From Candidatus Heimdallarchaeota archaeon (GTDB taxonomy: Archaea; Asgardarchaeota; Heimdallarchaeia; JABLTI01), in the NCBI GenBank assembly GCA_018238155.1, contig JABCTZ010000039.1, positions 1-59,792 on the forward strand: a stretch of DNA of 59,792 nucleotides. The letters run 5' to 3'. The translations under genes were made by a program, and so were the position numbers. The notes beneath the pieces are model-generated. The model searched no databases. It had not been told where the DNA came from and saw only the letters and a program-made list of their open reading frames with translations. Below, one piece after another: positions 10,062-34,448 of this stretch (position 1 is the first letter of the stretch; the number at the start of each line of letters is the position of its first letter).

Positions 10062-10730
10062 GTGTTAGAAGATTTGGCTGAGAGCTATAAAAAATCGACA
10101 AATGTCGAAGCAGATGTTATAAGATATTTAGTATGGAGAGAAATAATAGGAGAAGAAGGATGGTTCGAGAAAGGATTGAAAGAACTAGCCTGTTGTGTTG
10201 GGCGACACGAAAAGTCAATTGGAGAAGCTGTAAAGTTATTAGAAGCAAAAGGAATGATTCAAAAAGAAAAAAATGACAATAAGCTTTGGATTAAGCACAC
10301 ATTAACCAATGATGAGTTGTATACTAGAATGGCGTTTATTGACCCAATGTTTTGCAATACAGAGTCAATGCACGAATTCCGGAGTGACCTTCTAAATGAG
10401 ATTAAAAGATTAGAAGAGGAAATCATAACTACAAAAGAAGCTAATGCTAGAAATCAAGGGAGAGAGACAATAATCGACGCAGTCCTTGGGGAGGTAACAG
10501 AATCAAATATAGATAAACTTGTGACAAACTTTGAAGAGTTAACTTATGAAAACAGCAACAAATCACATGATGAATGTATAATGGATGCATTGGAGACATT
10601 TAGAGATGATGTATTTAGTAAACATGAGGAAACTTTCGAAGAAGAAAAATCTGATGAATGGATACAAGAAACATACGAATTATATTGGTCGAGAAGGAAG
10701 GAAGAGGGGAACAAAGAAAAGGTTCAATGA
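10062..10730 (+). CDS. Winged-HTH plus coiled-coil protein
   Basis: LKELACCVGRHEKSIGEAVKLLEAKGMIQK wHTH pattern; first gene of the cas1 operon. Confidence 0.7.
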   Translation: MLEDLAESYKKSTNVEADVIRYLVWREIIGEEGWFEKGLKELACCVGRHEKSIGEAVKLLEAKGMIQKEKNDNKLWIKHTLTNDELYTRMAFIDPMFCNTESMHEFRSDLLNEIKRLEEEIITTKEANARNQGRETIIDAVLGEVTESNIDKLVTNFEELTYENSNKSHDECIMDALETFRDDVFSKHEETFEEEKSDEWIQETYELYWSRRKEEGNKEKVQ

Positions 10731-10739
10731 TGTGATAGT

Positions 10740-12623
10740 TTGGCAAAAGATATCCAAAATGATATAGGCAAAATTCTGCAGGCAAGATCAAAAAACTATC
10801 CAGTAACGATTGATGAGCTAGTGATAGAGCTAGGATATTCGAATGGTGTAATTCATAGACACATCAAGATATTGGAAGCAAATGGTTTAGCTGAAGCAAA
10901 ACGAGTTGCAAGACCAAAGGGGGGAGTGACCTATTATAAAACACCAGAAGCAGAGTGGCCAAAACATCTTGGCAAGAAGTGTTTTGATTGCCAGAACAGA
11001 GGGAAGACATTACGCTGTATATACTATGAAGAACTAGCAGAGGAGGGAATAGTAAAAGAAGAGTATAGATCGGGTGTTATTTTAACAAGAAATACTTACG
11101 CTTGTGATGATTTCATAGAGAGAGAGATTCGCTGGAAAAAGAAAAAATATGAGGTTTTTTTAGCTGAAAATAGAAGAATAACAATATCAAAAGAAGGGCT
11201 TAAGATAACCTACCATTGTGCAAATAAGGAATGTCAAGCGGAACTCCCAACCTTGGGAAATGGATTAATAGCTAAACTGGGAAGTTCAGTAATAAGATGT
11301 GATGCCTGTAACTCTTTTTATAAAACGCTTTATGACCAAAAAAAGGAACAGTTCTTTGTTCATTATAACATCGAGAAAGGACTGGAATACAAGAAGAATT
11401 TTGCAAAAGCAACGGGTGGGGAAGAGCCAGAATTACTCTATTCAAGCGACCAATATGGAATCGTTATCCATGACCTACGGGATAGCAATTTTAATTTTAG
11501 AACAAAAACGTTGACAAACAACAATTGGGTGGGAAAATTAGGAGAGATAGGTTATCTGGTTGCTAAAAGAAAAGAGGATTATGAACCGCTAGTAGAAATA
11601 TTAGATGGAAAGGGATACAGGGACATACAAGTCATCCTAGGAGCAGATAAACTAGTCAGTCCGCCACCAATAAAACAACAGGTAGGACTTTTGAGATTGC
11701 TACGAGAGATAAAAATCATCAACAAAGAATTTTGCACTTCTATGCTGTTTAGTAGAATAACTGTGATTGAAAAAATTCACCAACAGTTTAACAAAGAAAA
11801 AGAAGTAGTGGTAAGAAAAGCAGTAAAAGCAATTGAACAGGCAATCGTGGAGGTGGAAAGGAAAGGATGGATAACACCAAAAGAATGGAATGCTTTTGAG
11901 ATGAGAGCGGGGAATGCAATGTGGAGCGTAGTAAAAGTGTATTTGAAAACTTTAGGAATTGACTTTCCAGGAAGAATGAGATGCAGATTAGTAGAAGATA
12001 TTTCAAAACCACATAGATGCTTCTACGCCTATAGTCCAATTGATGCTTTGATAAATGGAGTGTATGGAATAGCAGGGGAGTTTGTGAAAGAATATTGTTA
12101 TGAGATAGGTTTTTGCTGGGATGGATTGCCAGGATTATGTCATAAAAAAACGAGAGGAGGAGAGTTCGCATTCCATCTAGATATGCGAGAGCAAGAAAAG
12201 ATACTAACGTTACCATACCTACTAGAAGCACTACAAATAGGGACAATACAAATGGAAGAAATGCAATACTTAAGAGGAAGAAATAGACAGAAAATCTACT
12301 TTGTAAAACAAAAAACAGAATTAGAAGAGCAGATCATTGAAGTGGTCGAAGAGATGAAAGGAGGAGAGATAAACGGGGGAAAAGCAAAGAACGTGATAAG
12401 TAACTATTACTTGCAAGGGAAACAATGGTTGAATAACTTCCAAAGAGGGAGTAACCAGTTAGGAGTAGAACATCATGGAGTAGATTACCAACCATGGGCA
12501 ATCATGAAAGAGAAAGTATGGGAACAACTGGGAAGAGAAGAAAAAGAGAGATTGATAAACGGCTTGAAAAGAGAACATAGAAAAATAGGGTTCAGACCAT
12601 TAAAAGTGATGGAGATAAATTGA
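10740..12623 (+). CDS. cas1: Solo Cas1 homologue (casposase/aCas1-like) fused to N-terminal wHTH and Cys-rich Zn-binding regions
   Basis: C-terminal Cas1 motifs in the expected order: FEMRAGNAMW (E), FPGR, SPIDALINGVY (cf. DPvNAlLNYgY), GLCH (H), FHLDMREQEK (D/E). N-terminal wHTH TIDELVIELGYSNGVIHRHIKILEANG; CFDC, CANKEC and CDAC Cys pairs. Confidence 0.8.
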   Translation: MAKDIQNDIGKILQARSKNYPVTIDELVIELGYSNGVIHRHIKILEANGLAEAKRVARPKGGVTYYKTPEAEWPKHLGKKCFDCQNRGKTLRCIYYEELAEEGIVKEEYRSGVILTRNTYACDDFIEREIRWKKKKYEVFLAENRRITISKEGLKITYHCANKECQAELPTLGNGLIAKLGSSVIRCDACNSFYKTLYDQKKEQFFVHYNIEKGLEYKKNFAKATGGEEPELLYSSDQYGIVIHDLRDSNFNFRTKTLTNNNWVGKLGEIGYLVAKRKEDYEPLVEILDGKGYRDIQVILGADKLVSPPPIKQQVGLLRLLREIKIINKEFCTSMLFSRITVIEKIHQQFNKEKEVVVRKAVKAIEQAIVEVERKGWITPKEWNAFEMRAGNAMWSVVKVYLKTLGIDFPGRMRCRLVEDISKPHRCFYAYSPIDALINGVYGIAGEFVKEYCYEIGFCWDGLPGLCHKKTRGGEFAFHLDMREQEKILTLPYLLEALQIGTIQMEEMQYLRGRNRQKIYFVKQKTELEEQIIEVVEEMKGGEINGGKAKNVISNYYLQGKQWLNNFQRGSNQLGVEHHGVDYQPWAIMKEKVWEQLGREEKERLINGLKREHRKIGFRPLKVMEIN

Positions 12624-13274: not shown

Positions 13275-13382
13275 TGGTGGACCGGATGGAATTTGAATCC
13301 ACGGCCTCCTCCATTTTTGTCGGTAGAAACACATTTCTACCCATTGCCAAGGAGGCGATCTTCCAGACTGATCTACCGGCCC
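13275..13382 (-). tRNA. tRNA-Ala: tRNA-Ala(GGC) with 31-nt intron at position 37/38 (13314-13344) and encoded CCA
   Basis: Reverse complement folds as GGGCCGG TA GATC-AGTCTGGAA-GATC G CCTCC-TT GGC A[intron]T-GGAGG AGGCC GTGGA-TTCAAAT-TCCAT CCGGTCC A CCA; intron hairpin GGTAGAAA/TTTCTACC. Confidence 0.96.
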
Positions 13383-23000: not shown

Positions 23001-25442
23001 ATGAAGAGAAGTAACAGCTTTTTCCTAATATTATTAATAATAATGAGCATTGGCTTTGAACTAAATGCATCTGCAATTAGCAGTTCAGAACTAATCAATC
23101 GACCAAAAAATATTCCAATGAATAGTACTTCTGGAGAAATCACTTTCCCCTTTGGTAAGAATCTCCATCTTGATGGTAACAACTACTGGAATATGACCGA
23201 TTTGTTAGATGTAAACCAAACATTAGATAATCTCGCAGATTTTACCACTGAAGGTATAACAGCTTTCTCAGGTGATGATGTCATACCAGCTGTAAGTGCA
23301 AACAGACATTTAGTTAACGTTACACTCCTAAACTCAACTATTTGGAATGATAACGACATTGGTGAAGGAGAAATTTATTTCAATGTAACAATAAATGGCA
23401 ATTTCACTAAAACCATCAATTATGGCGCAAATGATGGTGATACTCTTGACCTTAATCTAGCAGTATTTTACGCTTGGTGTATAGTCCTTGATATCACCGT
23501 TGAAGTTTGGGAAGATGATCCCGCACCACAACCAGATGATGAACTAGGAATATATCATTATGCAACAACTAACCCAGTATCGCAAACCATTACTGGAAAT
23601 ACTACTATTGGTGATGCACAAGTATGGCTAGAAATAGATGTACAAGATACTACATCAGGAGTAACAGCTGAAGTTCTTGCAGATGGTTGTAAACCATATT
23701 TTTACTTTACTGACGAAACAGGAGCAACCGAGGAAGCAAATGAAACCTACGCTCGAGTGTTAGTTGGACCCGATGGGGATGCAGGACTAACAACAGCAAT
23801 TTGTATTCAATATATCTTTTGCTGGGATAAAGAGAACTTTCCATTTCCAATTAATGTGCAATTCCATGAAGACGATTACGAGCAATTCTTGATATTTATC
23901 GATCCAAGCGATTTGATGCATCCATATAGATATGTCTTTGATGACGGTAGCTATATTTCCAATACGCGCTCTCAAAGGATAGCTATCTGGGAAGACCACG
24001 CAACAACTGCTGTGCTCGAGACAGAAGCTTTTAGCTCTGAAGAGCTAACACCACTCATTGGCGATAATTACACTGCAAAATACAAATACTTTAACATGTC
24101 CGTTGTAACAGATGAGTTCCGTATGGGAACAAGTGGGATACAAACAATGAACTTGCTGGTGCAAACATCTTTCCACAACTTCCAAGAAGGACAACCAGGA
24201 ATTTTTGATATCACAACAAGTGAATTAGGATTCAACTATGCAATAGATGAATTGAATGACTCGAAAATAGCAGAATTCTTTAGAATGCATTATTACGCTT
24301 TCGAACAAGGATTATGGTGGATAGCTCATCTAGGGTTGGAATATCCTAAAGTACATCCGTTCACCTTTGATGTGGTAAATCCGTTCAGTTTTCCATACCT
24401 GATAAATGGTTACCCAAATGTAGTGGATGATATAGATGCATTCGAGGAAGCAAACAGTAATTTCATCAACTATGAATATGGCATAGACCTCACCCTCGCA
24501 CTGCTAATGAAAGCCAGGTATACGATAACCTCTCCTGAACTAGTGAACCCAGGGGATACATTCGATGCTACAATTGAAATCGAAATACTTGAAGACGACA
24601 CAGAAATTGCCTTGCTATACGATCTCTTCTTAAATGGAACGATAAAAGCACTATTCTTTAATCAGAACTTTTTATTTGACCACGAAGGAAAAGTAAGTGT
24701 GAATATACCAATAGGCAAACTGAGCTTGCTACTCTCACTGCTAGGATATCAACCATATGAACAAAGTGGGTTGAGCATAGACAGTAGTGGCTATTTAACA
24801 ATGGATCACCTGTATTTAGCACCAAACCTACTTGGAACAATAATGGCACTAAATATGACTCTAGATATTTGGGATATGATAAAAGGAGAATTACCAGGTT
24901 ACTACCCAGCAACAGAGAAACCATTAAACCTACTAGATTATTTCATGGAGTCAATTGAACTAACATTAGGAGCAGGATTTGAAGGCTATAATACTGGAAC
25001 AATCAGTTCAAACAATACCGCTTTAGCAACTGTAGGAACAGATGAATTCACTTTTGATGGAACAACAATGTCAACAACAACAGAGGTAACAGTAGCTGAA
25101 GATATTAGTACGACCACCGGATTTGAAATTGTTCTTGATGATATGCTATTTACCTATGAATTCTTTGCTGATTGGGGACTGGATATAAACTTTGGAAATA
25201 TCATAGCACTAATTGCACCCCAATATGCTGAAATGAATTTCGATATCGGAACCTTCCCATCAATAATAGTGGATTCTGATGATAGCCTGATCGATAGCGA
25301 TTCAACGGTAACGAAAACAACGACAGTAACTCTCGACTCTATTACCCCAACGAATACAGGTGGAATAATTCCTACAATACTAACCTTGTTAGCTATTTCT
25401 GGTTTAGGAACGCTTGTTATTATTCGAAAACGAAAGAAGTGA
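23001..25442 (+). CDS. Large secreted/surface glycoprotein with C-terminal membrane anchor
   Basis: Signal peptide, many N-x-S/T sites, Thr-rich linker, TM plus RKRKK tail. Confidence 0.85.
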   Translation: MKRSNSFFLILLIIMSIGFELNASAISSSELINRPKNIPMNSTSGEITFPFGKNLHLDGNNYWNMTDLLDVNQTLDNLADFTTEGITAFSGDDVIPAVSANRHLVNVTLLNSTIWNDNDIGEGEIYFNVTINGNFTKTINYGANDGDTLDLNLAVFYAWCIVLDITVEVWEDDPAPQPDDELGIYHYATTNPVSQTITGNTTIGDAQVWLEIDVQDTTSGVTAEVLADGCKPYFYFTDETGATEEANETYARVLVGPDGDAGLTTAICIQYIFCWDKENFPFPINVQFHEDDYEQFLIFIDPSDLMHPYRYVFDDGSYISNTRSQRIAIWEDHATTAVLETEAFSSEELTPLIGDNYTAKYKYFNMSVVTDEFRMGTSGIQTMNLLVQTSFHNFQEGQPGIFDITTSELGFNYAIDELNDSKIAEFFRMHYYAFEQGLWWIAHLGLEYPKVHPFTFDVVNPFSFPYLINGYPNVVDDIDAFEEANSNFINYEYGIDLTLALLMKARYTITSPELVNPGDTFDATIEIEILEDDTEIALLYDLFLNGTIKALFFNQNFLFDHEGKVSVNIPIGKLSLLLSLLGYQPYEQSGLSIDSSGYLTMDHLYLAPNLLGTIMALNMTLDIWDMIKGELPGYYPATEKPLNLLDYFMESIELTLGAGFEGYNTGTISSNNTALATVGTDEFTFDGTTMSTTTEVTVAEDISTTTGFEIVLDDMLFTYEFFADWGLDINFGNIIALIAPQYAEMNFDIGTFPSIIVDSDDSLIDSDSTVTKTTTVTLDSITPTNTGGIIPTILTLLAISGLGTLVIIRKRKK

Positions 25443-25989: not shown

Positions 25990-27360
25990 CTACTTTGTTC
26001 TTTTAGTATTTTTCTGTTTACTTCTTGGCAGATATTCCCATAGAAATGTAAATGTTTTTGCTGATTCCTTCAATCCTTCAGGTATTTTCAACATGGACTC
26101 AAAATCCTTTACGTCTCTTATTTTTTCGTTATCTAATTCCCCTAAAGTTATTTCTTTATTCTCTACTATCTGAAAATGTTCTTTATTCTTTTTCCACCTT
26201 ATATAGGAACCTGTTTTCAAGTTTTTTATTTTTTTACTGTTGAAAAACGTTGCAGGTATAATCTCATTCCAGGATTTTACTATTGGTAGAATAATCTGAA
26301 TCTGTTCCTTCGTAAGAAAGATTCCTACATCATAACTATCATTAAAACTTTGTGAGGTAAGATTTCCGGTAAAAATCATACCGATTGACTTTCCCTTCTC
26401 CTCAATAAACATTCCTTTCATATGTAATAATGTGTGACCTTTAATTTGAGCGCCACTTTCTTTTAGCTTAGCTAAAGGTTCAACACCCTTTCGACTTGGA
26501 CGTGTATAGATATGTAATTTTCTCCCATTTTGTAGTTGTTTAATAAGGATATCAAAGAGAGAAGTAGATTGTTCAATTGAGAAAGTACATAAATGAATTG
26601 GTCCTGTTGTTTCTTTAATTGTTTCTTCCAGAGTATCCTTAAAACCTATATCTTGATTAGCGCCGAATATATGGTCAATTTTTAGTTTGTCAAATAAATT
26701 TTCATTTATTTTCTTAACAGATCTTAGAGACTCTTTAGAGAGAGATTCGTGCTCTGCTTGATACCAAAAAGCATAGCAGAATGTATTGAATAGATTAACA
26801 ATTTGTTTTTTATTTAGTTTAATACCTATTTCTAAATTTTTTGATAAAGCGTGTTGAGTGAAATTTGCACTTGAAAGATAGCCTGCAGGATTTTCATTTT
26901 TGGGGTCAATTAAAACATATTTAGCATGGAAATGACGTGCTGTTCTAATAAAACATTTTGTTTTTAAAATTCTCAATAATTTTTTATGCTCATCAATTCT
27001 ATCATTTTCAGTTTCGCTTTCTTTACCTTGATCTTTATTTAATCGTTGTTCTGAAGCAGTTAGAAGATAGATTCTTACACCTTTTTTCGAAGCCTTTAGA
27101 AGAGCATTTGTAATTTCAGTTTCTTGAATTAAGAAAGAGCAAATAACTACTAATTCTTTAGCTTTTTCAATTGCTTTTGAAATTTCTCTTTCAAAAATAC
27201 GATTCTTTCCAATAAACCATATATCAGGAGAATAGAATTCTTTCATTTTATTATCAAAATCACCTGATGTATCAATATGCCAGATGTTCTCTAAAGATAA
27301 AAGATTATCAATAGTTTTTTTATTATTTTTTAACAACACTTTCAAATTCTTTTGACTCAT
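25990..27360 (-). CDS. Phospholipase D-family nuclease (two HxK domains)
   Basis: FHAKYVLID...SSANFT and LHMKGMFIE...TGNLT; abuts the upstream gene (27361/27360). Confidence 0.9.
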   Translation of the reverse strand: MSQKNLKVLLKNNKKTIDNLLSLENIWHIDTSGDFDNKMKEFYSPDIWFIGKNRIFEREISKAIEKAKELVVICSFLIQETEITNALLKASKKGVRIYLLTASEQRLNKDQGKESETENDRIDEHKKLLRILKTKCFIRTARHFHAKYVLIDPKNENPAGYLSSANFTQHALSKNLEIGIKLNKKQIVNLFNTFCYAFWYQAEHESLSKESLRSVKKINENLFDKLKIDHIFGANQDIGFKDTLEETIKETTGPIHLCTFSIEQSTSLFDILIKQLQNGRKLHIYTRPSRKGVEPLAKLKESGAQIKGHTLLHMKGMFIEEKGKSIGMIFTGNLTSQSFNDSYDVGIFLTKEQIQIILPIVKSWNEIIPATFFNSKKIKNLKTGSYIRWKKNKEHFQIVENKEITLGELDNEKIRDVKDFESMLKIPEGLKESAKTFTFLWEYLPRSKQKNTKRTK

Positions 27361-28461
27361 CTAATTATTCTCCTTTTCAGCTATGGGGATTAAATCTAAG
27401 GGTGCTTTAACAAACCAAAATGCGTTAGGAATATTTTCTAAATCTAAATCTTCTTCCATTTCTTTTGCCAAAATTTCATGTGAAAGAAATTTAATTGTAA
27501 AACCTGGGAATAACATAGAATTTTGTTGTATGCGTTCAATAAAAACAGCATCAAATAAGAAATCATTTATATCATGTTTTAAGAGCCAATTTGCCCATTT
27601 ATTGGCATCAACTTCAGTTTTTGGTTTAATATCAACTTCTACAGATGTTGAATCAAATACTCCAAAATCAATGATGTTTGGGGATTTAAATTTAATTTTC
27701 TTCTTAAAAGTCATTTTTTCCGTGTCTGATATATTACTGTGAACTTCTAATTTATTATCATTCCAATCCCAATCCGTTATTCTATTTGCTAATAACTCCT
27801 CCCAAATTATTTGGAAGTTGGGGAAATAATCGATTTCTCTGTGATTATCATCAAAAATTCCTGTAGTTTCTAAGATGCAAGATTTCTTAGTTAAATTAAT
27901 TGAAACCACCATTTCTAAGTTTTCTATTAATTCAACTTTTTCAGAAATAGATTTTACATTTATCTCGGTTTTTTCATCATCGAATAATTGCTTGCCTTCA
28001 ATTTTCTCTATATCCTTCAACCATCGAGGGATATCTATTAAATTGATTGGATTCTCATCAGGTTCCCTAATTTCATTTCTAAAATTAATATTTTCATCAA
28101 TAAACTGAAAATCTAAAATCCTCTGAGGAATTAATTGATCTTTAGTAGCATAAAGATAAGACACTCCATCATAATAACGATAGATCATTCCATCTTCTAT
28201 TGCTTGAAAACCTACTTCAGTTATTTTGTATTCATTGTCAAGCACTTCATATTCAATGCACCTTCGTAAAATATTTTCCGCCATTTGATTGTGATATCTA
28301 AATAAAAATTCTTTGCAAACAATTTTCTTTGATAATTGATTATTATTAGACTGAGCTATTAGCAAAAGGGCAATAATATCAGATCTCTCTTCTTTTCTTC
28401 CTATATCTAAAATAACTTTGAATTTACTAACTGCTATTTTTCTTTCCAGTTTTATATTCAT
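27361..28461 (-). CDS. Uncharacterised protein with N-terminal wHTH-like region, in the helicase-PLD operon
   Basis: 366 aa; ...YKITEVGFQAIE; 10-nt gap after the helicase. Confidence 0.75.
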   Translation of the reverse strand: MNIKLERKIAVSKFKVILDIGRKEERSDIIALLLIAQSNNNQLSKKIVCKEFLFRYHNQMAENILRRCIEYEVLDNEYKITEVGFQAIEDGMIYRYYDGVSYLYATKDQLIPQRILDFQFIDENINFRNEIREPDENPINLIDIPRWLKDIEKIEGKQLFDDEKTEINVKSISEKVELIENLEMVVSINLTKKSCILETTGIFDDNHREIDYFPNFQIIWEELLANRITDWDWNDNKLEVHSNISDTEKMTFKKKIKFKSPNIIDFGVFDSTSVEVDIKPKTEVDANKWANWLLKHDINDFLFDAVFIERIQQNSMLFPGFTIKFLSHEILAKEMEEDLDLENIPNAFWFVKAPLDLIPIAEKENN

Positions 28462-28471
28462 AATAATTCAC

Positions 28472-31054
28472 CTAGATTGTTAAATCATCTTTAATATTAG
28501 CTAATTCTTGCAAAATTGATGAATAATTTTGCTCACTAAAGAATGTTCTATTTCCAAGCATGACAAGTTGATATCTTGCTCTAGTAATTGCTACATTTAA
28601 TCGATTAATTGAGTTAAGAAAACCTACACTGTTTGTTTTTACAAATGAAAGAAAGACAATATCTGCTTCTTGACCTTGAAATCTATCAACTGTACATACT
28701 TTGATTTTTACGTTATAATCTTTGAGAATGAATTCTCTTGAACCAATCTTAAAACCAAAGTGATTCAATAATAAGCTATGAAGAAGATCCTCCTGGTATC
28801 TGTAAAATGTTAAAATGGCTACTTCCCATTTTCTATTGGATTTTTTAGCATATTTCAAGAACTCATCTAATTCAATTATTAACCGATTTGCTTCATTGAT
28901 ATTAATATTCATTTTTGAAAAATTTCTATCTGTTATATTAATCCAAATTGATCTTGAAGCATATTTTGAATAATTCCAGTTGCGCTTTTCAACCATTAGG
29001 GGATTATCTTTCAATGCCATACCGTCATAGATATAATTTCTAGGAAATTCCGATATTTCAGGATGCATTCTATGTTGATATTCCAACTTTTCAAATCTGA
29101 TTTCTAAATCCTCGTCATTAAAACCATTTCTAATAACAGAATGCTTCCATGGTTCAAGATTCTTATAATCAATAAAACCCTCTTTTAACAATTCGATTAT
29201 AGATGGAAAAGCAACTTTCTTTATTGTTGTAAGATTCCTCCTTAATTTTTCTAAATCATATGATTTGAAATATTGAGGAAGCAATTTTTCAATATCATCC
29301 TCTAATTCTATTTTGATTGAATCATTTTCGGAATATCTTAATGTAAAAAGACGTACTAAACGCCATGCGAGAAGTTCTCCAAAACTTCCTCTATACCTTT
29401 TTGAAAGTTTCTCAGTCTCGAAATACTTCTCCCAATACGAATGTGCGTTTCTCATTTTTTCACTAAATCCTTCACCCAAATGAAAAGAATCCATTGGAAA
29501 AGATTTTTCATATTTTTTTACGGTTTCAGGTGAACCTATGAAAATTTGAGATCCAAGGAAAACCGGCGAAAATGGTTCTGGGTTATTATCTAAATTAATG
29601 TAGTCCAAATTTAATGAATCAAATTGCTCCATATATTTTTCTCTGTTTTTTAAATCAGCTTCTGATATTATTGTACTATAAGAATCATATTTCCAACAAC
29701 AAAAAGCTGCCCTGCATATTAATTGATCATCTAAAGGAATAATACTATCCAACGTTTTTTTAATTATTAAATCATCAACAAATGGAGATAGTTGCATATT
29801 ATCACCAACTAATATCCATCTTTTGCAGAACAGTGCTGGAACAATAAATTCTTGAAATGTCGTTTTGCTTGCTTCATCGATTATTAGTAAATCGAAAACA
29901 GCTTTTGGTGTTGTTTTTTCGGCTTCTATATCGGGATGTTTTAAAATGCCCATTACAGTACCACATACTACATTGGCATTATCTAAAATTAATCGTTCAA
30001 TTTCTGATTCGCCTATATCAGATTGAAGAACGTTAAGATAATAGTCCTGACCCACACTTTTTGACTTTCCTAATTTAATTAACTCATTGCAAATTCTTTC
30101 TCTTTCAGTTCTTTTTCTATTTTCAAGAAAATATTTCTTAATAGTTTCAGGAATCAATGGATTATTTTCATTCCCAATCCTTACAGCGATAACCTCTTCC
30201 CTATCAGCAATTTTTTCTAGAACATTATCAACTGCAACATGAGTTGAGGCACATAGCAGTACTCGCTTATTTTGTTTCACAGCTTGAAGAATCAATTCAC
30301 AGATAGTTAATGTTTTTCCAGATCCAGGGGGACCATGAAGAATTGCAAAATCTGATGTGCTCAAAGCTTTTTGAACAAAAATCCTTTGGCTATCTACTCC
30401 AGGAAAATCCGGATCATTAAGTAATTTCCAATCATCTATTGATTGTACTACAAAGTTAGGCCATAAAGAAAGGTCTTTCACTTGAAATAATCTAAGTAGA
30501 GGTCTATGCTCTTTTCTAGGTTTGGATTGAAGAGCATAAATTGCTTTTACTTGTTGATGAAAATCATAAGGGTTGCCTTTATAAAAAATATATTCAGAAT
30601 TAACTTTTCTATCAACTTGTAAGACGTTAAACATTGGAAAGCTTTTCAATACATAAATCCAATCATCTCGGCTATCATATTTTTGTACTTTTTCTCTTAA
30701 CACTTTTGCTTTCATAAAATCCTCAAAGGTATCCTCATCAATTTTACCTGAAGGGTCATATATTTGTATAAATTCACCATCTGATACACTAATTTCATCA
30801 AGTTCTGTTTTTTCAAAACCATATTTATTCCAAGAATCCAGTTTAATTTGTTTTAGCATGTCTATTATCAGTTCTTTAGATAAAACTCGAAATGGTAATC
30901 GTATAACTCTGTCTTGTTGGAGATATCTCGCATTATTTAAATAAAAAGTGAAATCAAGAAGAGTATAATAACAATCCTTCCTAAATCTATCCATGTTTTC
31001 TTGATCAGGTAAATCAGGTAAATCAGGAAGATTGTAATAGTATAATTCTGACAT
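28472..31054 (-). CDS. SF1B helicase of the Upf1/DNA2-NAM7 family (AAA_11/AAA_12)
   Basis: HGPPGSGKT, LCASTHVAVDN, IIDEAS, LVGDNMQL, QHRMHPEI, TVDRFQGQE, NRLNVAITRAR. Confidence 0.95.
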   Translation of the reverse strand: MSELYYYNLPDLPDLPDQENMDRFRKDCYYTLLDFTFYLNNARYLQQDRVIRLPFRVLSKELIIDMLKQIKLDSWNKYGFEKTELDEISVSDGEFIQIYDPSGKIDEDTFEDFMKAKVLREKVQKYDSRDDWIYVLKSFPMFNVLQVDRKVNSEYIFYKGNPYDFHQQVKAIYALQSKPRKEHRPLLRLFQVKDLSLWPNFVVQSIDDWKLLNDPDFPGVDSQRIFVQKALSTSDFAILHGPPGSGKTLTICELILQAVKQNKRVLLCASTHVAVDNVLEKIADREEVIAVRIGNENNPLIPETIKKYFLENRKRTERERICNELIKLGKSKSVGQDYYLNVLQSDIGESEIERLILDNANVVCGTVMGILKHPDIEAEKTTPKAVFDLLIIDEASKTTFQEFIVPALFCKRWILVGDNMQLSPFVDDLIIKKTLDSIIPLDDQLICRAAFCCWKYDSYSTIISEADLKNREKYMEQFDSLNLDYINLDNNPEPFSPVFLGSQIFIGSPETVKKYEKSFPMDSFHLGEGFSEKMRNAHSYWEKYFETEKLSKRYRGSFGELLAWRLVRLFTLRYSENDSIKIELEDDIEKLLPQYFKSYDLEKLRRNLTTIKKVAFPSIIELLKEGFIDYKNLEPWKHSVIRNGFNDEDLEIRFEKLEYQHRMHPEISEFPRNYIYDGMALKDNPLMVEKRNWNYSKYASRSIWINITDRNFSKMNININEANRLIIELDEFLKYAKKSNRKWEVAILTFYRYQEDLLHSLLLNHFGFKIGSREFILKDYNVKIKVCTVDRFQGQEADIVFLSFVKTNSVGFLNSINRLNVAITRARYQLVMLGNRTFFSEQNYSSILQELANIKDDLTI

Positions 31055-31064
31055 TGTTCTCTCC

Positions 31065-32012
31065 CTATGTACAAATATTTCTTTTTTTTCTTTTCAGTAT
31101 CTTTAATGACTTTCTCTTTATCCTAAATAAAGATTTTTTATGAGGATCACGATAATAGAAACCATTTCTTTGATTGAATTTTTCTTTTTGCCAAGTAATC
31201 TGATTAAATGCTTTCAAAACACCAACTGAGAATATTGATTCACTATATCTATGAGTGCCTGTTGTGTCATCAAAAAATCGTCCTATAGGATCAATCATAA
31301 TATATGATCCTGTAATTAAATCATTACTTTCAAAAACAGCATAAGAAATTTCCTTGTGGTTATTTTTGAATGCAGCAAATTCGATTGGTGTGATTAGTAG
31401 TTTTTCAACAGAACCATTATTTTGTCCATCTACTTTCAAAACTTGAAAAATTTTCCATCTGATTGGTTCAATTTCTCTAATTATTTCATTTAAATCTTCA
31501 AACCAATTAAGTTTGGTAATTACTGAGTTTAATTGCAATTGAATATTATAAGATTTGATCAATTTAGCTGTTTCTTTAATTGAATCAACATAATAACCCC
31601 AACCTCTGCCCAATTTTTTCTCAGTTTCATTTGAAGGGCTGTCAAGACTTAATGTAATATAATCAATATGTTTTCCATAATTAGCTAAAAACTCGGCATC
31701 AATATTTGTCCCATTAGAAACAATTTTAGTAACTAATCCCACTGATTTTGAGCGTTCCAATAATTCACCAATATATGGACAAAGCATTGGTTCTCCTCCA
31801 ACTAAAGTTAGTTTCTCGGTTCCCACATCTTTTAGCATTGCAGGAACTTTCAAAGCCAATTCTTTTGATATTATCTTTTTAACATCATTAAATGTAGCAA
31901 AACAAAACTTACATTTCATATTGCACCATGGCCAGAAATGCCAATTAACGCTTATTGGTTTATTTTGTAATGATTTTTGTTTTGGCATAAAGAATACTAT
32001 GTTAAAGAACAT
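31065..32012 (-). CDS. rsad2: Viperin (RSAD2-like radical SAM antiviral enzyme); start likely 31988
   Basis: SVNWHFWPWCNMKCKFCFATF, GGEP, IVSNG, LSLDS, LGRG, RWKIFQVL, ESNDLITGSYIMIDPIGRF, RNGFY viperin motifs. Confidence 0.92.
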   Translation of the reverse strand: MFFNIVFFMPKQKSLQNKPISVNWHFWPWCNMKCKFCFATFNDVKKIISKELALKVPAMLKDVGTEKLTLVGGEPMLCPYIGELLERSKSVGLVTKIVSNGTNIDAEFLANYGKHIDYITLSLDSPSNETEKKLGRGWGYYVDSIKETAKLIKSYNIQLQLNSVITKLNWFEDLNEIIREIEPIRWKIFQVLKVDGQNNGSVEKLLITPIEFAAFKNNHKEISYAVFESNDLITGSYIMIDPIGRFFDDTTGTHRYSESIFSVGVLKAFNQITWQKEKFNQRNGFYYRDPHKKSLFRIKRKSLKILKRKKRNICT

Positions 32013-32103
32013 ATTAAAACATAGTCTTTTATAGTAAAGGTTTGATTTGTATTATAAAACACAATCATTAATAATATAAACTCGATAATTATAGTGAATT
32101 ACT

Positions 32104-32760
32104 ATGGAAGTACATATAGCTACAGTAGGTTTAACAATTGAACCAATTTTCCACGGCGTAAATGCTTATACAATTGATAAATTAATTCTACTACACAGCA
32201 ATGATGACAAATCACATGAAATTTCAGTAGAAATTTCTAAGGTAATTCAAAAAATGAATATTGATTATGAAATTATTGAAATTGATGCATTTGATCTAGA
32301 AAACGTAATTATTTCCATAATGGATGTTCACAAGAAGCACAATAGGGATAATGTTTCTATTAATCTCACAGGTGGCACTAAGGTTATGGCTTCTGCGGCG
32401 TTATTAGCAGGTTACATTTTAGGATTAAGAGTTTATTATATACAAGATGGATCTAATGAAAGAAACAAAGGAAAACCAAAGAAAGAACTAGTGATTGAAT
32501 TACCAGTTCCAAAAACTAACATTCATGATTTAGAAGATACACAGAGAAAAATTATTTCTTATATTTATCAAGAAAATGGAATGTTGGAAAGAGCAAATTC
32601 TGCCTTACATGAAGAATTGAAGATAACCAAACAAAATGCTAGTTATCATTTAAAACAACTAGCTTCAAAAGAATTAATCACACTAAAAATAGATGGCAGA
32701 AACAAGATAGCAACATTAACAAATACTGGAAAACTTTTTGCTAGAATCGTTTCAAAATAA
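32104..32760 (+). CDS. CARF-wHTH transcriptional regulator (Csa3/DUF6293-like)
   Basis: HIATVG...INLTGGTKVM CARF motifs; C-terminal wHTH ITKQNASYHLKQLASKELI...LTNTG. Confidence 0.88.
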   Translation: MEVHIATVGLTIEPIFHGVNAYTIDKLILLHSNDDKSHEISVEISKVIQKMNIDYEIIEIDAFDLENVIISIMDVHKKHNRDNVSINLTGGTKVMASAALLAGYILGLRVYYIQDGSNERNKGKPKKELVIELPVPKTNIHDLEDTQRKIISYIYQENGMLERANSALHEELKITKQNASYHLKQLASKELITLKIDGRNKIATLTNTGKLFARIVSK

Positions 32761-32841
32761 CCAACATTTCAACTTTCTATCAAGCAAGCTTTTTATTTTG
32801 CAAATTCAATACTTGATTGGAATAGAGGTTAGGTTGTTTTA

Positions 32842-33354
32842 ATGTCAAGTAATAAATTGTGTTATATGATTTTTTGTGGAACAAGCCCTTATTCAATTAT
32901 TAATTCATTATGGGCATCTATTGATATAAAAGGAATAATACCAACAAAGATCGTTCTTTTAGTATCTGAAAAGCAAAGCAGTTTTGAAAAAATAGAGAAA
33001 TCTGTTTCAACTCTAATCGAGAATATATTGGAGAAAGAATGCTCTGTAGAAACTTTAATTATTTCAGAATTTGAAATAAAGAAGAATATTGCACTGCTTA
33101 TGAAATATATTGATAGTTTAGGTGAACAGAAAAAACATTTGATTTTAGATATAACACCCGGTAGAAAAACAATGAGTATTTCAGGTGTATTATTCGCAAA
33201 TAATGCTTTGAAACAAAAAATAATCACCAGTGAAGATTTGCATCAAATTATTTACTGGCATCTAATTGACAGTGATAAACATTATAGTAAATGGTATCCT
33301 GAAATTCCAAGAGAGAATTTTAACTATGTAGACTTAATGGAAGTTATAAAATGA
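32842..33354 (+). CDS. Standalone CARF-domain protein
   Basis: CGTSPYSIINSLWA and ILDITPGRKTMS CARF motifs; overlaps the next gene by 4 nt. Confidence 0.8.
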   Translation: MSSNKLCYMIFCGTSPYSIINSLWASIDIKGIIPTKIVLLVSEKQSSFEKIEKSVSTLIENILEKECSVETLIISEFEIKKNIALLMKYIDSLGEQKKHLILDITPGRKTMSISGVLFANNALKQKIITSEDLHQIIYWHLIDSDKHYSKWYPEIPRENFNYVDLMEVIK

Positions 33355-34448
33355 TTATCTCTTGCTCTGAAATCGAAATAATTCTAAATGAATTATTAGC
33401 ACAAAATAATAAAGAAATCACATTAGCTCCTTTCTTTCCAGAAGAAAAAATGTTCAATTATGATTTAGAGAATAAAAAATTACTTCTTAAAACAAATCCG
33501 CAGAATTGGAGGGTGTTCATTGATTTCTTAACAAGAGAATATTCTCTTTCAAGAGCAACAAAAAAGGAATTGCCAGAATTTGACGATATAATAAAAGCAG
33601 TTATTTCTGCAGGATTACTAATGCCCAAGGGAATTGATGATTTAATCAAAGAAATAAAAAATTACTTGACACCAGTACAGAGAATGAATAGAAGAAAACG
33701 ATTCTTAATAGCACTAGATACCAACCAACTGATTGATAATTTAATGAGTAGCTATGTAGAAAGAGAATTCTCAACAAAAGAGAAACAGCAAATGAGAAAT
33801 TTTATTAGCTATATTATATCCAGTTGGGTACTTTCTGAAAGAGATGGATTTATGAGAAATGAAGAAAATAAAGGCATAAAGGAATTAAATAGAAAATTAG
33901 AGGAATGGGATTTTTATCTTCCAGAAAAAATAGATAGAAAAGCAAGATTAGGATATTCGATTTATTCAGAATTGAAATCATTAGAAGAATCCTATACTCA
34001 ACTAGAGAGTAAAAAATTATCAGAAGAAAAATATGAAATAATGAGAAATAAAAATCTAAAAGACCAAGCAATAGTTGAGGAATACGAAGATTACATAAAA
34101 TCGTTGAAAGACGTAAAATTTGTTTATGTAACAGCCGATGACCAATCTTATGCACTTGCTAAGGATCGTTTTGAAAGTGTTAAAGTAAAAGTGGAGAATA
34201 GAATACCCAAAGAATTAGACTGTAATTTCGAAAGTGGTGCAAAACTAATCTATCAATTAGCTTTATTTTTAGGATTTCTAAGAATCGATAGCTATGATAT
34301 TAAATTCAATATCTATTATAAAGGAAAAGAACATGATCATTGGGAGAATAAAAAACTAAAATTTCTGTGTTCAGATAAGAAATTTGATAAAAGAATCACT
34401 AAAGTTATCTCAACTATTCGGGAATTAAAAGAGTGCTTAAAAAATTAA
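33351..34448 (+). CDS. PIN-domain ribonuclease
   Basis: FLIALDTNQL...E...KDQAIVEEY...YVTADDQSYALA acidic tetrad. Confidence 0.8.
   Translation: MIISCSEIEIILNELLAQNNKEITLAPFFPEEKMFNYDLENKKLLLKTNPQNWRVFIDFLTREYSLSRATKKELPEFDDIIKAVISAGLLMPKGIDDLIKEIKNYLTPVQRMNRRKRFLIALDTNQLIDNLMSSYVEREFSTKEKQQMRNFISYIISSWVLSERDGFMRNEENKGIKELNRKLEEWDFYLPEKIDRKARLGYSIYSELKSLEESYTQLESKKLSEEKYEIMRNKNLKDQAIVEEYEDYIKSLKDVKFVYVTADDQSYALAKDRFESVKVKVENRIPKELDCNFESGAKLIYQLALFLGFLRIDSYDIKFNIYYKGKEHDHWENKKLKFLCSDKKFDKRITKVISTIRELKECLKN

What the first reader, a model, noticed from the sequence alone, without database searches (positions are those of the whole stretch)
32013..34448. Orphan CARF module (CARF-wHTH, CARF, PIN) divergent from viperin, with no cyclase in the window
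Seen: a Csa3-like regulator shares a ~90-115 bp divergent promoter with viperin and is followed by overlapping CARF and PIN genes. No Cas10 or CD-NTase was recognised in the 60 kb. Known: CARF domains bind cyclic oligoadenylates or, in RtcR, RNA ends with 2',3'-cyclic phosphate. Inference: a nucleotide-inducible viperin operon plus a split CARF-PIN effector or toxin-antitoxin pair. The ligand could be cOA made elsewhere, RNA fragments from PIN/PLD, or a viperin product.
Basis: partly seen in the sequence, partly recalled or inferred. Interest (0 to 1): 0.78.

Follow-up and report, generated by a model that had tools for sequence, protein, structure and literature searches.

The report
CARF switch and split CARF-PIN RNase
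Three genes of an Asgard archaeon (a nucleotide-sensing regulator and a two-piece sensor-RNase) are the control arm of a conserved seven-gene antiviral cassette that also holds viperin, yet the genome has no known enzyme that could make their signal.

Summary
P0001 (32104-32760) is a CARF-wHTH regulator. It lies 91 bp from, and divergent to, a viperin gene. P0002 (32842-33354) is a CARF_m1 sensor. It overlaps P0003 (33351-34448) by 4 nt. P0003 hits no family model directly, but it belongs to the PIN half of the fused CARF_m1-PIN family and keeps the invariant D/E/D/D quartet. A complex model supports P0002-P0003 binding.

The trio is not a chance neighbour of viperin. The same seven genes recur in every related Asgard contig long enough to show them, with different flanks and in rearranged orders. 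The other four are viperin, an SF1 helicase, a winged-helix protein and a PLD nuclease. In one relative a CARF-PD-(D/E)XK nuclease replaces the PIN pair.

An inverted repeat, TTTTATAGTA-N13-TAYTATAAAA, overlaps both putative TATA boxes and travels with the regulator. Both CARF pockets are invariant.

I found no Cas10, mCpol, GGDEF or CD-NTase in this genome. None of the 12 genomes of its family has a Cas10 match. The genome's CRISPR system is type I-B.

Most likely this is a ligand-gated switch plus a ligand-gated RNase that respond to a nucleotide signal of unknown source.

The scan has already met this cassette in at least 8 other genomes. I found it in no paper.

The parts
32104..32760 (+). 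P0001, a CARF-wHTH transcription regulator (HFX_2341-like, PADLOC 'CARF3'; Csa3-like in architecture)
   Evidence: Pfam PF19810 scores 67.7 bits against a cut-off of 30, with HTH_20/MarR-type C-terminal hits. PADLOC PDLC01866 gives 4e-47 over the full length. The signature N87-x-T-G-G-T-K93 and G9 are invariant in 18 homologues at 24-78% identity. Single copy in the genome. dN/dS is 0.08-0.17.
32027..32059 (.). Inverted repeat TTTTATAGTA-N13-TATTATAAAA in the 91-bp divergent intergenic region. Candidate operator overlapping two opposed TATA-like boxes.
   Evidence: Found. The same half-sites and the same 13-nt spacing occur in L005, L006, L008, L009, L010, L013, L017 and L019. They also occur in L015, where the regulator faces a different operon. 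This site is the single best match in the genome: 1 mismatch, with 6 hits at up to 3 mismatches against 1-5 hits at other spacings. Binding has not been tested.
32789..32799 (+). Conserved T-rich/TATA-like element CTTTTTATTTT in the 81-bp gap between P0001 and P0002. It is either a terminator for P0001 or a separate promoter for P0002-P0003.
   Evidence: Alignment of six loci. Function is inferred only.
32842..33354 (+). P0002, a stand-alone CARF_m1 sensor: the N-terminal half of a split CARF-PIN effector
   Evidence: PADLOC PDLC01972 gives 1.5e-20; PDLC01973 (CARF_m1--CARF_PIN) gives 4.8e-17 on profile positions 4-139. G13, N21, D103-x-T105-x-x-R108-K109 and Y138 are invariant in split and fused forms. 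The complex model with P0003 scores ipSAE 0.79 against 0.00 for the best control.
33351..34448 (+). P0003: N-terminal helical/beta domain, PIN-like nuclease core (about residues 118-280) and a C-terminal domain. The nuclease half of the split CARF-PIN effector.
   Evidence: No direct family hit. A profile search finds 66 relatives, including the fused forms P0050, P0064 and P0083. Relatives hit PADLOC CARF_PIN and Pfam PIN_4 at the equivalent residues. D123, E163, D238 and D263 are invariant in 44 family members. Weak PDB PIN hits: 3i8o at E 0.0023 and 9jxw at E 0.0037. The AF2 model on a shallow alignment was poor.
31065..32012 (-). Prokaryotic viperin (pVip), first gene of the divergent operon
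   Evidence: NF038283 scores 269 bits against a cut-off of 180. PADLOC pVip gives 1.4e-77.
28472..31054 (-). SF1 (Upf1/MkoA-like) helicase
   Evidence: AAA_11 and AAA_12 at 7e-37. PADLOC MkoA gives 6.8e-84 over the helicase core only.
27361..28461 (-). Conserved 366-aa protein with a winged-helix domain (residues 25-92) and a beta-rich remainder with no recognised fold
   Evidence: AF2 pLDDT 86. VIA-align Z 8-9, rmsd 1.7-2.0 over 64-65 residues, to MarR-type wHTH domains. No Foldseek PDB match for the rest. Present in all cassette variants.
25990..27360 (-). PLD-family (HKD) nuclease, MkoB/DrmC-like
   Evidence: PLDc_2 at 3e-27. PADLOC DrmC gives 1.4e-21 and MkoB 1.5e-8.

Best explanation
The three genes are the sensing and control arm of a conserved seven-gene Asgard defence cassette.

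- P0001 is a dimeric CARF-wHTH transcription factor. I infer that it sits on the inverted repeat TTTTATAGTA-N13-TATTATAAAA, which overlaps the two opposed TATA-like boxes of the 91-bp divergent region. From there it would gate both the viperin / SF1 helicase / winged-helix protein / PLD nuclease operon and its own arm.
- P0002 and P0003 are the two halves of a split CARF_m1-PIN ribonuclease. They assemble into one complex. Ligand binding in the CARF pocket would switch the PIN active site (D123, E163, D238, D263).
- Both CARF pockets carry the canonical [DN]x[ST]xxx[RK] signature, so the ligand is most likely a cyclic-oligoadenylate-like nucleotide.
- In this lineage the ligand cannot come from Cas10, mCpol, a GGDEF cyclase or a CD-NTase. 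Its source is an unrecognised synthase or an infection-derived nucleotide.

Shown: gene identities, the split/fused relationship, conservation of the gene set, conserved pockets and catalytic residues, the conserved repeat, and the absence of known cyclases.

Inferred: DNA binding, ligand gating, the identity of the ligand, and RNase activity.
For: Domains and motifs:
- Domain assignments.
- Split versus fused: the A1 profile finds the fused proteins P0050, P0064 and P0083. They match PADLOC CARF_m1--CARF_PIN over their full length.
- Relatives P0037 and P0040 pass Pfam PIN_4 at residues 124-275.
- The acidic quartet is invariant in 44 sequences.
- The CARF signatures are invariant. The signature is defined in PMC4012209.

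Complex model: ipSAE 0.79 in three runs, best control 0.00. That mark was reached by 58 of 80 solved complexes and by 2 of 110 mismatched pairs. At least 93% of contacts agree between runs, and the partner's pLDDT is at least 84.

Linkage:
- The same seven genes occur with different flanks in L005, L006/L007, L009, L013 and L016.
- They are rearranged in the closed genome G015. There CARF_m1 and a PIN-like ORF follow the PLD gene; hhalign gives 96.4% probability, E 1.3e-9.
- In G055 a CARF4-PD-(D/E)XK nuclease takes the place of the PIN pair.
- In G142 the viperin is co-transcribed with the regulator.
- The regulator lies next to at least 10 of 28 true viperins in 400 genomes.

Selection: dN/dS is 0.07-0.25.

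Operator.

No cyclase. Cas10 is found in 0 of 12 genomes of the own family against 69 of 400 in the phylum. The genome's own CRISPR system is type I-B.
Against: - No experiment or structure shows ligand binding, DNA binding or RNase activity.
- The repeat lies in DNA that is about 85% A+T. It may be nothing more than two back-to-back TATA boxes.
- P0003 has no direct PIN hit, and its AF2 model was poor over the PIN region.
- The complex pass may lean on a solved fused CARF-PIN, PDB 9jxw. That entry is hit weakly by both halves.
- The assembly is 90.7% complete, so a cyclase could lie in the missing part.
- For Csa3 of S. solfataricus, cA4 did not change DNA binding in vitro (PMC8844856). Ligand gating of a CARF-wHTH is therefore not a given.
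- The PIN arm is broken in two relatives (L010 and L013), so it is dispensable at least sometimes.
Confidence: 0.55

Rival explanations
1. The cassette is a mobile ancillary module of type III CRISPR-Cas that works in trans. The ligand is cA4 or cA6 made by Cas10. In this genome the CARF arm is either an orphan left behind after loss of type III, or a Cas10 lies in the unassembled 9%.
For: - Distant split CARF_m1+PIN relatives lie beside csm1-csm4 (L044).
- The CARF4-PD-(D/E)XK that replaces the PIN pair in G055 matches models labelled as type III signalling effectors.
- A regulator homologue at 36% identity lies 5 kb from a Cas10-palm protein and a RAMP protein in G324.
- 5 of 14 cassette genomes have a Cas10 elsewhere, against 69 of 400 in the phylum.
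- The PIN arm has decayed in L010 and L013.
Against: - 0 of 12 genomes of the own family have Cas10.
- 9 of 14 cassette genomes lack it, including the single-contig genome G142.
- All three genes here are intact, keep every invariant residue and show dN/dS of 0.07-0.25. That does not fit a dead orphan.
- Within families the Cas10 rate in cassette genomes is near the family's own rate (f5: 2 of 4 against 6 of 12).
Confidence: 0.2
2. The signal is made inside the cassette. Either a viperin product (ddhNTP or a derivative) or RNA fragments released by the helicase/PLD machinery bind the CARF domains, giving feedback control of the operon and a second-line RNase.
For: - CARF proteins always travel with the helicase / winged-helix / PLD trio, and nearly always with viperin, through several gene orders.
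- No known cyclase is present in the genome.
- The two arms recombine as modules yet stay together.
Against: - The same regulator clade, with the same repeat, also fronts a bpMoxR-VWA operon (L015) and lies near a type III-like locus (L023). Its signal is therefore not specific to this operon.
- One evaluable cassette (L021, G386) has no viperin.
- The 366-aa protein shows only a wHTH and no nucleotidyltransferase fold that I could detect.
- HKD and PIN nucleases are known to leave 5'-phosphate ends rather than cyclic phosphates (own knowledge).
- Both CARFs keep the post-strand-4 lysine that RtcR-type, RNA-end-sensing CARFs mostly lack (PMC4012209).
Confidence: 0.15
3. P0002/P0003 is a VapBC-like toxin-antitoxin pair. 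The CARF protein merely neutralises the PIN toxin, and P0001 is a ligand-independent repressor. The CARF domains serve only as dimerisation modules.
For: - The small gene precedes and overlaps the PIN gene by 4 nt, as in VapBC operons.
- The complex model supports binding.
- The pair lies in a defence island beside restriction-modification genes.
Against: - Fused CARF_m1-PIN proteins exist. A fusion makes no sense for a labile antitoxin.
- P0002 has no DNA-binding domain.
- The ligand-pocket residues are invariant in both CARF families across 19-78% identity.
- In another lineage the pair is replaced by a fused CARF-nuclease.
Confidence: 0.05

Closest known systems
Csa3 (Csa3a/Csa3b) CARF-wHTH transcription factors of Sulfolobales (PMC8699464, PMC8844856)
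   Same: N-terminal CARF plus C-terminal winged helix. Canonical nucleotide-pocket signature. Binds paired palindromes at promoters with non-canonical TATA boxes. Controls defence genes.
   Different: P0001 scores below the curated Csa3 cut-off (45 bits against 60.2). It falls in Pfam HFX_2341-like and PADLOC 'CARF3'. It is not next to cas genes; it fronts a viperin/helicase/PLD operon. Its genome has no Cas10.
Fused CARF_m1 CARF-PIN effectors (PADLOC PDLC01973 and PDLC01068; two CARF-PIN families noted in PMC4012209; probably PDB 9jxw/9jxx)
   Same: Same CARF_m1 sensor and same PIN-containing C-terminal region, with the same invariant residues. Distant members lie beside type III-A genes.
   Different: Here the protein is split into two overlapping genes, sits in a viperin cassette and is not linked to type III CRISPR. 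Split forms are common in the family, so the split itself is not new. I found no paper describing the biochemistry of this family.
Mokosh type I (MkoA helicase + MkoB PLD nuclease; Millman et al. 2022, cited in PMC11291487)
   Same: The neighbouring operon pairs an SF1 helicase with a PLD nuclease.
   Different: Only the helicase core matches MkoA. A conserved winged-helix protein is inserted. Viperin and CARF genes are attached. No CARF control of Mokosh is described.
Panoptes type II (mCpol + CARF-TM; PMC13577387)
   Same: A CARF effector that works outside CRISPR-Cas.
   Different: Panoptes carries its own cyclase (mCpol) and a membrane effector. No mCpol was found here, and the effector here is a PIN nuclease.
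RtcR (CARF-sigma54 activator sensing tRNA fragments with 2',3'-cyclic phosphate; PMC7790460)
   Same: A CARF-containing transcription regulator that is not dependent on Cas10.
   Different: RtcR-type CARFs mostly lack the basic residue after strand 4 (PMC4012209), whereas P0001 keeps K93. P0001 has no AAA+ domain and an archaeal wHTH output.

Membership tests
CARF superfamily (P0001 and P0002) | Rossmann-like domain with a small or polar residue after strand 1 and the [DN]x[ST]xxx[RK] signature after strand 4 (PMC4012209) | tested here: met
   P0001 has N87-L-T-G-G-T-K93 and G9. P0002 has D103-I-T-P-G-R-K109 and G13-T-S. Both are invariant in alignments A5 and A6. HMM hits.
Csa3 (NCBIfam TIGR01884 cas_HTH) | Score at or above the curated cut-off of 60.2 bits | tested here: not met
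   45.0 bits, E 8.1e-12.
Csa3 (NCBIfam TIGR01884 cas_HTH) | CARF + wHTH architecture | tested here: met
   CARF at residues 2-119 and HTH at 140-215.
Csa3 (NCBIfam TIGR01884 cas_HTH) | Encoded in or beside a CRISPR-cas locus | tested here: not met
   Neighbours are viperin, CARF_m1/PIN and a DGQHR protein. The genome's cas1-cas2-cas4-cas8b locus is on another contig.
Csa3 (NCBIfam TIGR01884 cas_HTH) | Binds cA4 | not testable with these tools
   Needs a binding assay.
CARF_m1 CARF-PIN effector (PADLOC PDLC01973) | N-terminal CARF_m1 domain | tested here: met
   P0002 hits PDLC01973 at 4.8e-17 (profile positions 4-139) and PDLC01972 at 1.5e-20.
CARF_m1 CARF-PIN effector (PADLOC PDLC01973) | C-terminal PIN-containing region homologous to that of the family | tested here: met
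   P0003 has no direct hit. Its family profile reaches the fused members P0050, P0064 and P0083, and split members that hit PDLC01973 at profile positions 164-459. Close relatives P0027-P0029 hit at 1e-11 to 5e-18.
CARF_m1 CARF-PIN effector (PADLOC PDLC01973) | Single polypeptide | tested here: not met
   Two ORFs with a 4-nt overlap. The same split is seen in all close relatives.
PIN domain nuclease | Four conserved acidic active-site residues | tested here: met
   D123, E163, D238 and D263 are invariant in 44 sequences. They align to the PIN motifs of MJ1533, PDB 3i8o.
PIN domain nuclease | PIN fold | tested here: inconclusive
   The AF2 model on a shallow alignment has pLDDT below 50 for residues 105-279. 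In the ESMFold2 complex run the P0003 chain has pLDDT 88-89, but I did not compare its fold with known structures.
PIN domain nuclease | Direct match to a curated PIN model | tested here: not met
   P0003 has no Pfam or NCBIfam PIN hit. Relatives P0037 and P0040 pass PIN_4.
Type III CRISPR-Cas cOA signalling pathway (ancillary module) | A Cas10 cyclase in the same genome | tested here: not met
   PF22335, TIGR02578 and TIGR02577 gave no match in G000. tblastn with four Asgard Cas10 sequences found nothing credible. 0 of 12 genomes of the family have a match. Caveat: the assembly is 90.7% complete.
VapBC-type toxin-antitoxin | Antitoxin with a DNA-binding domain that neutralises a PIN toxin | tested here: not met
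   P0002 is a CARF domain only. Fused forms exist.
Panoptes type II | mCpol cyclase next to a CARF-TM effector | tested here: not met
   No PF18182 match in G000, G082, G142, G386 or G047. The effector here is a soluble PIN-type protein.
RtcR-type CARF regulators | Divergent CARF lacking the basic residue after strand 4, fused to a sigma54 AAA+ domain | tested here: not met
   K93 is present. No AAA+ domain.

The most novel reading that the evidence does not exclude
CARF domains in this cassette sense a second messenger that is not made by any Cas10, mCpol or CD-NTase enzyme. It could be a product of an unrecognised synthase, of viperin, or of the helicase/PLD machinery. In that case Asgard archaea would run a signal-induced viperin response through a CRISPR-independent CARF pathway, a prokaryotic counterpart of inducible viperin expression in animals.
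Probability: 0.3. Interest if true: 0.85.

Novelty: new variant of a known kind. Interest (0 to 1): 0.6.

Why it matters
Viperin is one of the few antiviral enzymes shared by archaea and eukaryotes. Papers on Asgard viperins (PMC11291487, bioRxiv 10.1101/2023.09.13.557418, PMC12988326) treat it as a single gene, or as a gene paired with a kinase. None mentions CARF regulators or a helicase-PLD partnership.

This locus shows a viperin under a ligand-sensing switch, tied to a sensor-gated RNase, in a lineage with no type III CRISPR. Two questions become testable:
- How is prokaryotic viperin expression controlled?
- What do CARF sensors bind when no known cyclase is present?

An earlier scan note says a related cassette occurs in the cultured Promethearchaeum syntrophicum. 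I did not check this. If true, transcript and ligand studies would be feasible.

The scan has met this cassette in at least 8 other genomes, so this window adds a further instance plus new details rather than a first sighting.

Tried and rejected
- AF2 of P0003 on nine close homologues gave a poor model (pLDDT 54; PIN region below 50). I did not use it for fold comparison.
- The 366-aa protein as a hidden cyclase: the AF2 model is good (pLDDT 86). Foldseek found no PDB match at E <= 0.001. VIA-align wide matched only the wHTH at residues 25-92. The remaining roughly 270 residues were barely tested, so a cyclase fold there is not excluded.
- The SMODS hit on contig 42 is the CCA-adding enzyme next to a 2'-5' RNA ligase-like gene.
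- The weak tblastn hit of a Cas10 query on contig 29 is a PAS histidine kinase.
- A wider regulon: the repeat pattern is not enriched genome-wide, with 6 hits at the 13-nt spacing against 1-5 at other spacings.
- The 2020 CARF classification paper (PMC7498327) is not held. What I say about the clade names rests on PADLOC model names.
- hhalign of the shallow A1 profile against the G015 366-aa ORF failed (probability 0.6%). The deep A4 profile succeeded.
- No paper was found for PDB 9jxw.
Full report
**What is there.** The region holds three + strand ORFs that run divergently from a viperin gene.

- The viperin (31065-32012, -) is a clear family member: NF038283 scores 269 bits against a cut-off of 180, and PADLOC pVip gives 1.4e-77.
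- P0001 (32104-32760) starts 91 bp away. It is a CARF + winged-helix protein. Pfam HFX_2341_N scores 67.7 bits against a cut-off of 30, with HTH_20 and MarR-type hits at the C-terminus. PADLOC 'CARF3' PDLC01866 gives 4e-47 over the full length. It resembles Csa3 in architecture but stays under the curated Csa3 cut-off, at 45 bits against 60.2.
- After an 81-bp gap comes P0002 (32842-33354). It is a stand-alone CARF of the CARF_m1 kind: PDLC01972 gives 1.5e-20. It also matches the first 139 positions of the fused CARF_m1--CARF_PIN model at 4.8e-17.
- P0003 (33351-34448) overlaps P0002 by ATGA. It has no hit in Pfam, NCBIfam or PADLOC.

**Is P0003 a PIN?**

- It has only 13 close homologues (62-86% identity), all from Asgard-type metagenome bins.
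- A profile of nine of them, searched against 1.8 billion representatives, found 66 proteins. Most are 330-380 aa and align end to end. Four are longer (P0050, P0052, P0064, P0083) and carry the match in their C-terminal part.
- The long ones match PADLOC CARF_m1--CARF_PIN over their full length (1e-40 to 2e-59). The short ones match its positions 164-459.
- P0037 and P0040 pass Pfam PIN_4 at residues 124-275.
- In a 44-sequence alignment the invariant residues are N13, D123, E163, R199, D238 and D263. The four acidic ones are a PIN-type quartet. The profile aligns weakly to the PIN domain of MJ1533, PDB 3i8o, at E 0.0023.
- So P0002 + P0003 is a split form of a family that also exists fused. 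Split forms are the majority in the family.
- An AF2 model on the shallow alignment was poor, and I did not use it.

The complex test with the deep alignments supports binding:

- ipSAE was 0.79 in three runs; the best of three controls scored 0.00.
- That mark was reached by 58 of 80 solved complexes and by 2 of 110 mismatched pairs.
- At least 93% of contacts agree between runs, and the partner's pLDDT is at least 84.
- The interface joins the first and last helices of P0003 to P0002 residues 16-20, 50-62 and the conserved 145-157 segment.
- Caveat: PDB 9jxw (429 aa, 'PIN domain-containing protein') is hit weakly by both halves. It is probably a solved fused CARF-PIN, so the pass may partly reflect likeness.

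**The trio belongs to a seven-gene cassette.**

- Every related contig long enough to show it carries the same set: PLD nuclease, 350-380-aa protein, SF1 helicase and viperin, divergent from CARF-wHTH, CARF_m1 and PIN-like. These contigs are L005, L006/L007, L009, L013 and L016.
- The flanks differ: tyrosine phosphatase, DGQHR protein, DEAD helicase, HNH.
- In 400 genomes of the phylum, P0001 homologues occur in 37 and true viperins at 28 places. At least 10 of those viperins have the regulator within 1.3 kb, in four families. Several more sit at contig ends.
- The set survives rearrangement. In the closed genome G015 the CARF_m1 gene and a 366-aa ORF follow the PLD gene. That ORF is homologous to the P0003 family (hhalign 96.4%, E 1.3e-9).
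- In the single-contig genome G142 the viperin is co-transcribed with the regulator, and a CARF-only gene heads the helicase operon.
- In G055 the regulator is followed by a CARF4-PD-(D/E)XK nuclease instead of the PIN pair (PDLC01883, 4e-51), and the viperin is followed by a kinase.
- One evaluable variant (L021, G386) lacks viperin.
- The arms are mosaic. The window's helicase, adaptor and PLD are 80/62/65% identical to those of L005 but only 35-40/24-26/31-32% to those of L006, L009 and L013. Its CARF arm is closest to L008 and L013 (77-78/72-73/81-85%).
- So modules are exchanged yet kept together. That is good evidence of functional coupling.
- In L010 and L013 the PIN gene is broken, and in L010 the CARF_m1 gene is broken too.

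**Signs of function.**

- The CARF signature [DN]x[ST]xxx[RK] (PMC4012209) is intact. It is invariant in both families: N87-x-T-G-G-T-K93 plus G9 in 18 regulators at 24-78% identity, and D103-x-T-x-x-R-K109 plus G13 in 15 CARF_m1 sequences, fused ones included.
- RtcR-type CARFs mostly lack this basic residue (PMC4012209). A cyclic-oligoadenylate-like nucleotide is therefore the more likely ligand class.
- dN/dS for the three genes is 0.07-0.25. dS is mostly saturated, so these values are rough.

**The intergenic region.**

- It contains TTTTATAGTA-N13-TATTATAAAA at 32027-32059.
- The same half-sites with the same 13-nt spacer occur in all close loci and in the 38-39%-identical G015 and G011 loci.
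- They also occur in L015, where a 51%-identical regulator faces a bpMoxR-VWA-EVE operon instead. The repeat therefore travels with the regulator.
- More distant regulators (24-27% identity) have a different palindrome, TTAACAA/TTGTTAA.
- Each arm also looks like an archaeal TATA box pointing at the other. A protein bound there would block both promoters.
- The centre-to-centre distance of 20 bp would suit a CARF dimer that holds its two wHTH domains apart. This is inference; Csa3 likewise binds paired palindromes (PMC8844856).
- Genome-wide, this site is the best match, and the pattern is not enriched. The regulator therefore seems to act locally.

**Where could the signal come from?**

- The whole assembly (4.08 Mb, 46 contigs, 90.7% complete) has no match to Cas10 palm, Csm1, Cmr2, GGDEF or mCpol models.
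- The only SMODS hit is the CCA-adding enzyme.
- tblastn with four Asgard Cas10 proteins found nothing credible.
- The genome does have CRISPR arrays with cas1, cas2, cas4 and cas8b, that is type I-B.
- None of the 12 genomes of its family has a Cas10 match, against 69 of 400 in the phylum.
- Of 14 cassette-bearing genomes, 5 have Cas10 elsewhere and 9 do not. G142, a single contig, is among the 9.
- On the other side, distant CARF_m1+PIN pairs lie beside csm genes. A 36%-identical regulator also lies 5 kb from a Cas10-palm protein and a RAMP protein.
- The parts therefore descend from type III signalling. Here they work, or at least are maintained, without it.
- The conserved 366-aa protein of the viperin operon folds confidently (pLDDT 86), but only its wHTH domain is recognisable. 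I found no sign that it is a synthase, though about 270 residues remain unassigned.

**Reading.**

- Most likely (0.55) this is a ligand-gated repressor/activator plus a ligand-gated split RNase. Both would answer a nucleotide signal whose source in this lineage is unknown.
- Rivals: cOA from a Cas10 in trans (0.2); a signal made by the cassette itself (0.15); a plain toxin-antitoxin pair with ligand-blind CARFs (0.05).

**Novelty.**

- The papers on Asgard and archaeal viperins and defence that I could search do not mention this association.
- Earlier notes of this scan describe the same cassette in at least 8 other genomes, and my independent results agree with them.
- Every part is of a known kind. 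What is new is the combination and the decoupling from Cas10. Hence 'new variant of a known kind'.

Noticed in passing
L015:8516-10660 (GCA_014730365.1 contig WJIK01000121.1): A 51%-identical CARF-wHTH with the same TATAGTA-N13-TACTATA repeat faces a bpMoxR AAA / VWA / EVE-YhcG operon instead of viperin. The same bin also carries a decayed viperin cassette (L010). The regulator looks like a portable switch for different defence operons.
   Followed up: partly
L010:1559-3162 and L013:11254-12341: The CARF_m1 and PIN genes (L010) or the PIN gene alone (L013) are broken into pieces, while the regulator and viperin stay intact. This looks like decay, or counter-selection, of the RNase arm.
   Followed up: partly
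window 25990-31054 compared with L005, L006, L009, L013, L035, L043: The helicase/adaptor/PLD trio comes in two deeply diverged versions (62-80% against 24-40% identity to the window's) among cassettes whose viperin and CARF genes are all 50-85% identical. The window's version is nearer to that of a different family (G141/G142, 49/39/42%). This points to module swapping or horizontal transfer.
   Followed up: partly
L023:15063-18616 (G324:C37): A short Cas10-palm protein (479 aa) is followed by a 705-aa RAMP protein, 5 kb downstream of a regulator homologue. About 15 other 480-590-aa Cas10-palm ORFs appear in the phylum search, possibly a compact type III-like variant.
   Followed up: no
L019:9059-9550 and 10253-12266 (G011:C33): A NYN/Zc3h12a-like RNase gene heads the viperin operon. 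The regulator is followed by an NAD epimerase/dehydratase and a second, diverged viperin-like radical SAM gene.
   Followed up: no
G000 contigs C12:7829-8986, C15:363585-364597, C27:25157-26765: Three CRISPR-like arrays (16, 14 and 22 repeats). The one on C15 lies beside cas4-cas2-cas1 and a cas8b-like gene (type I-B).
   Followed up: partly
window 23001-25442 (+): An 813-aa ORF convergent with the PLD gene has no NCBIfam hit. L006 and L007 have an 811-826-aa ORF in the same position. I did not test whether they are homologous.
   Followed up: no
window 13278-13382 (-): A tRNA found by Rfam (49.5 bits, 105 nt) but not by ARAGORN, consistent with an intron-bearing archaeal tRNA.
   Followed up: no
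L007 (GCA_035528535.1, DATKYH010000045.1): A full cassette sits on a contig whose record is labelled 'candidate division Zixibacteria bacterium'. Its genes are 60-77% identical to the Asgard ones, so either the contig was mis-binned or the cassette was transferred recently.
   Followed up: no
window 32761-32841: A conserved CTTTTTATTTT element and a GGAG-rich stretch lie in the gap before P0002. The effector pair may therefore have its own promoter rather than being read through from P0001.
   Followed up: partly
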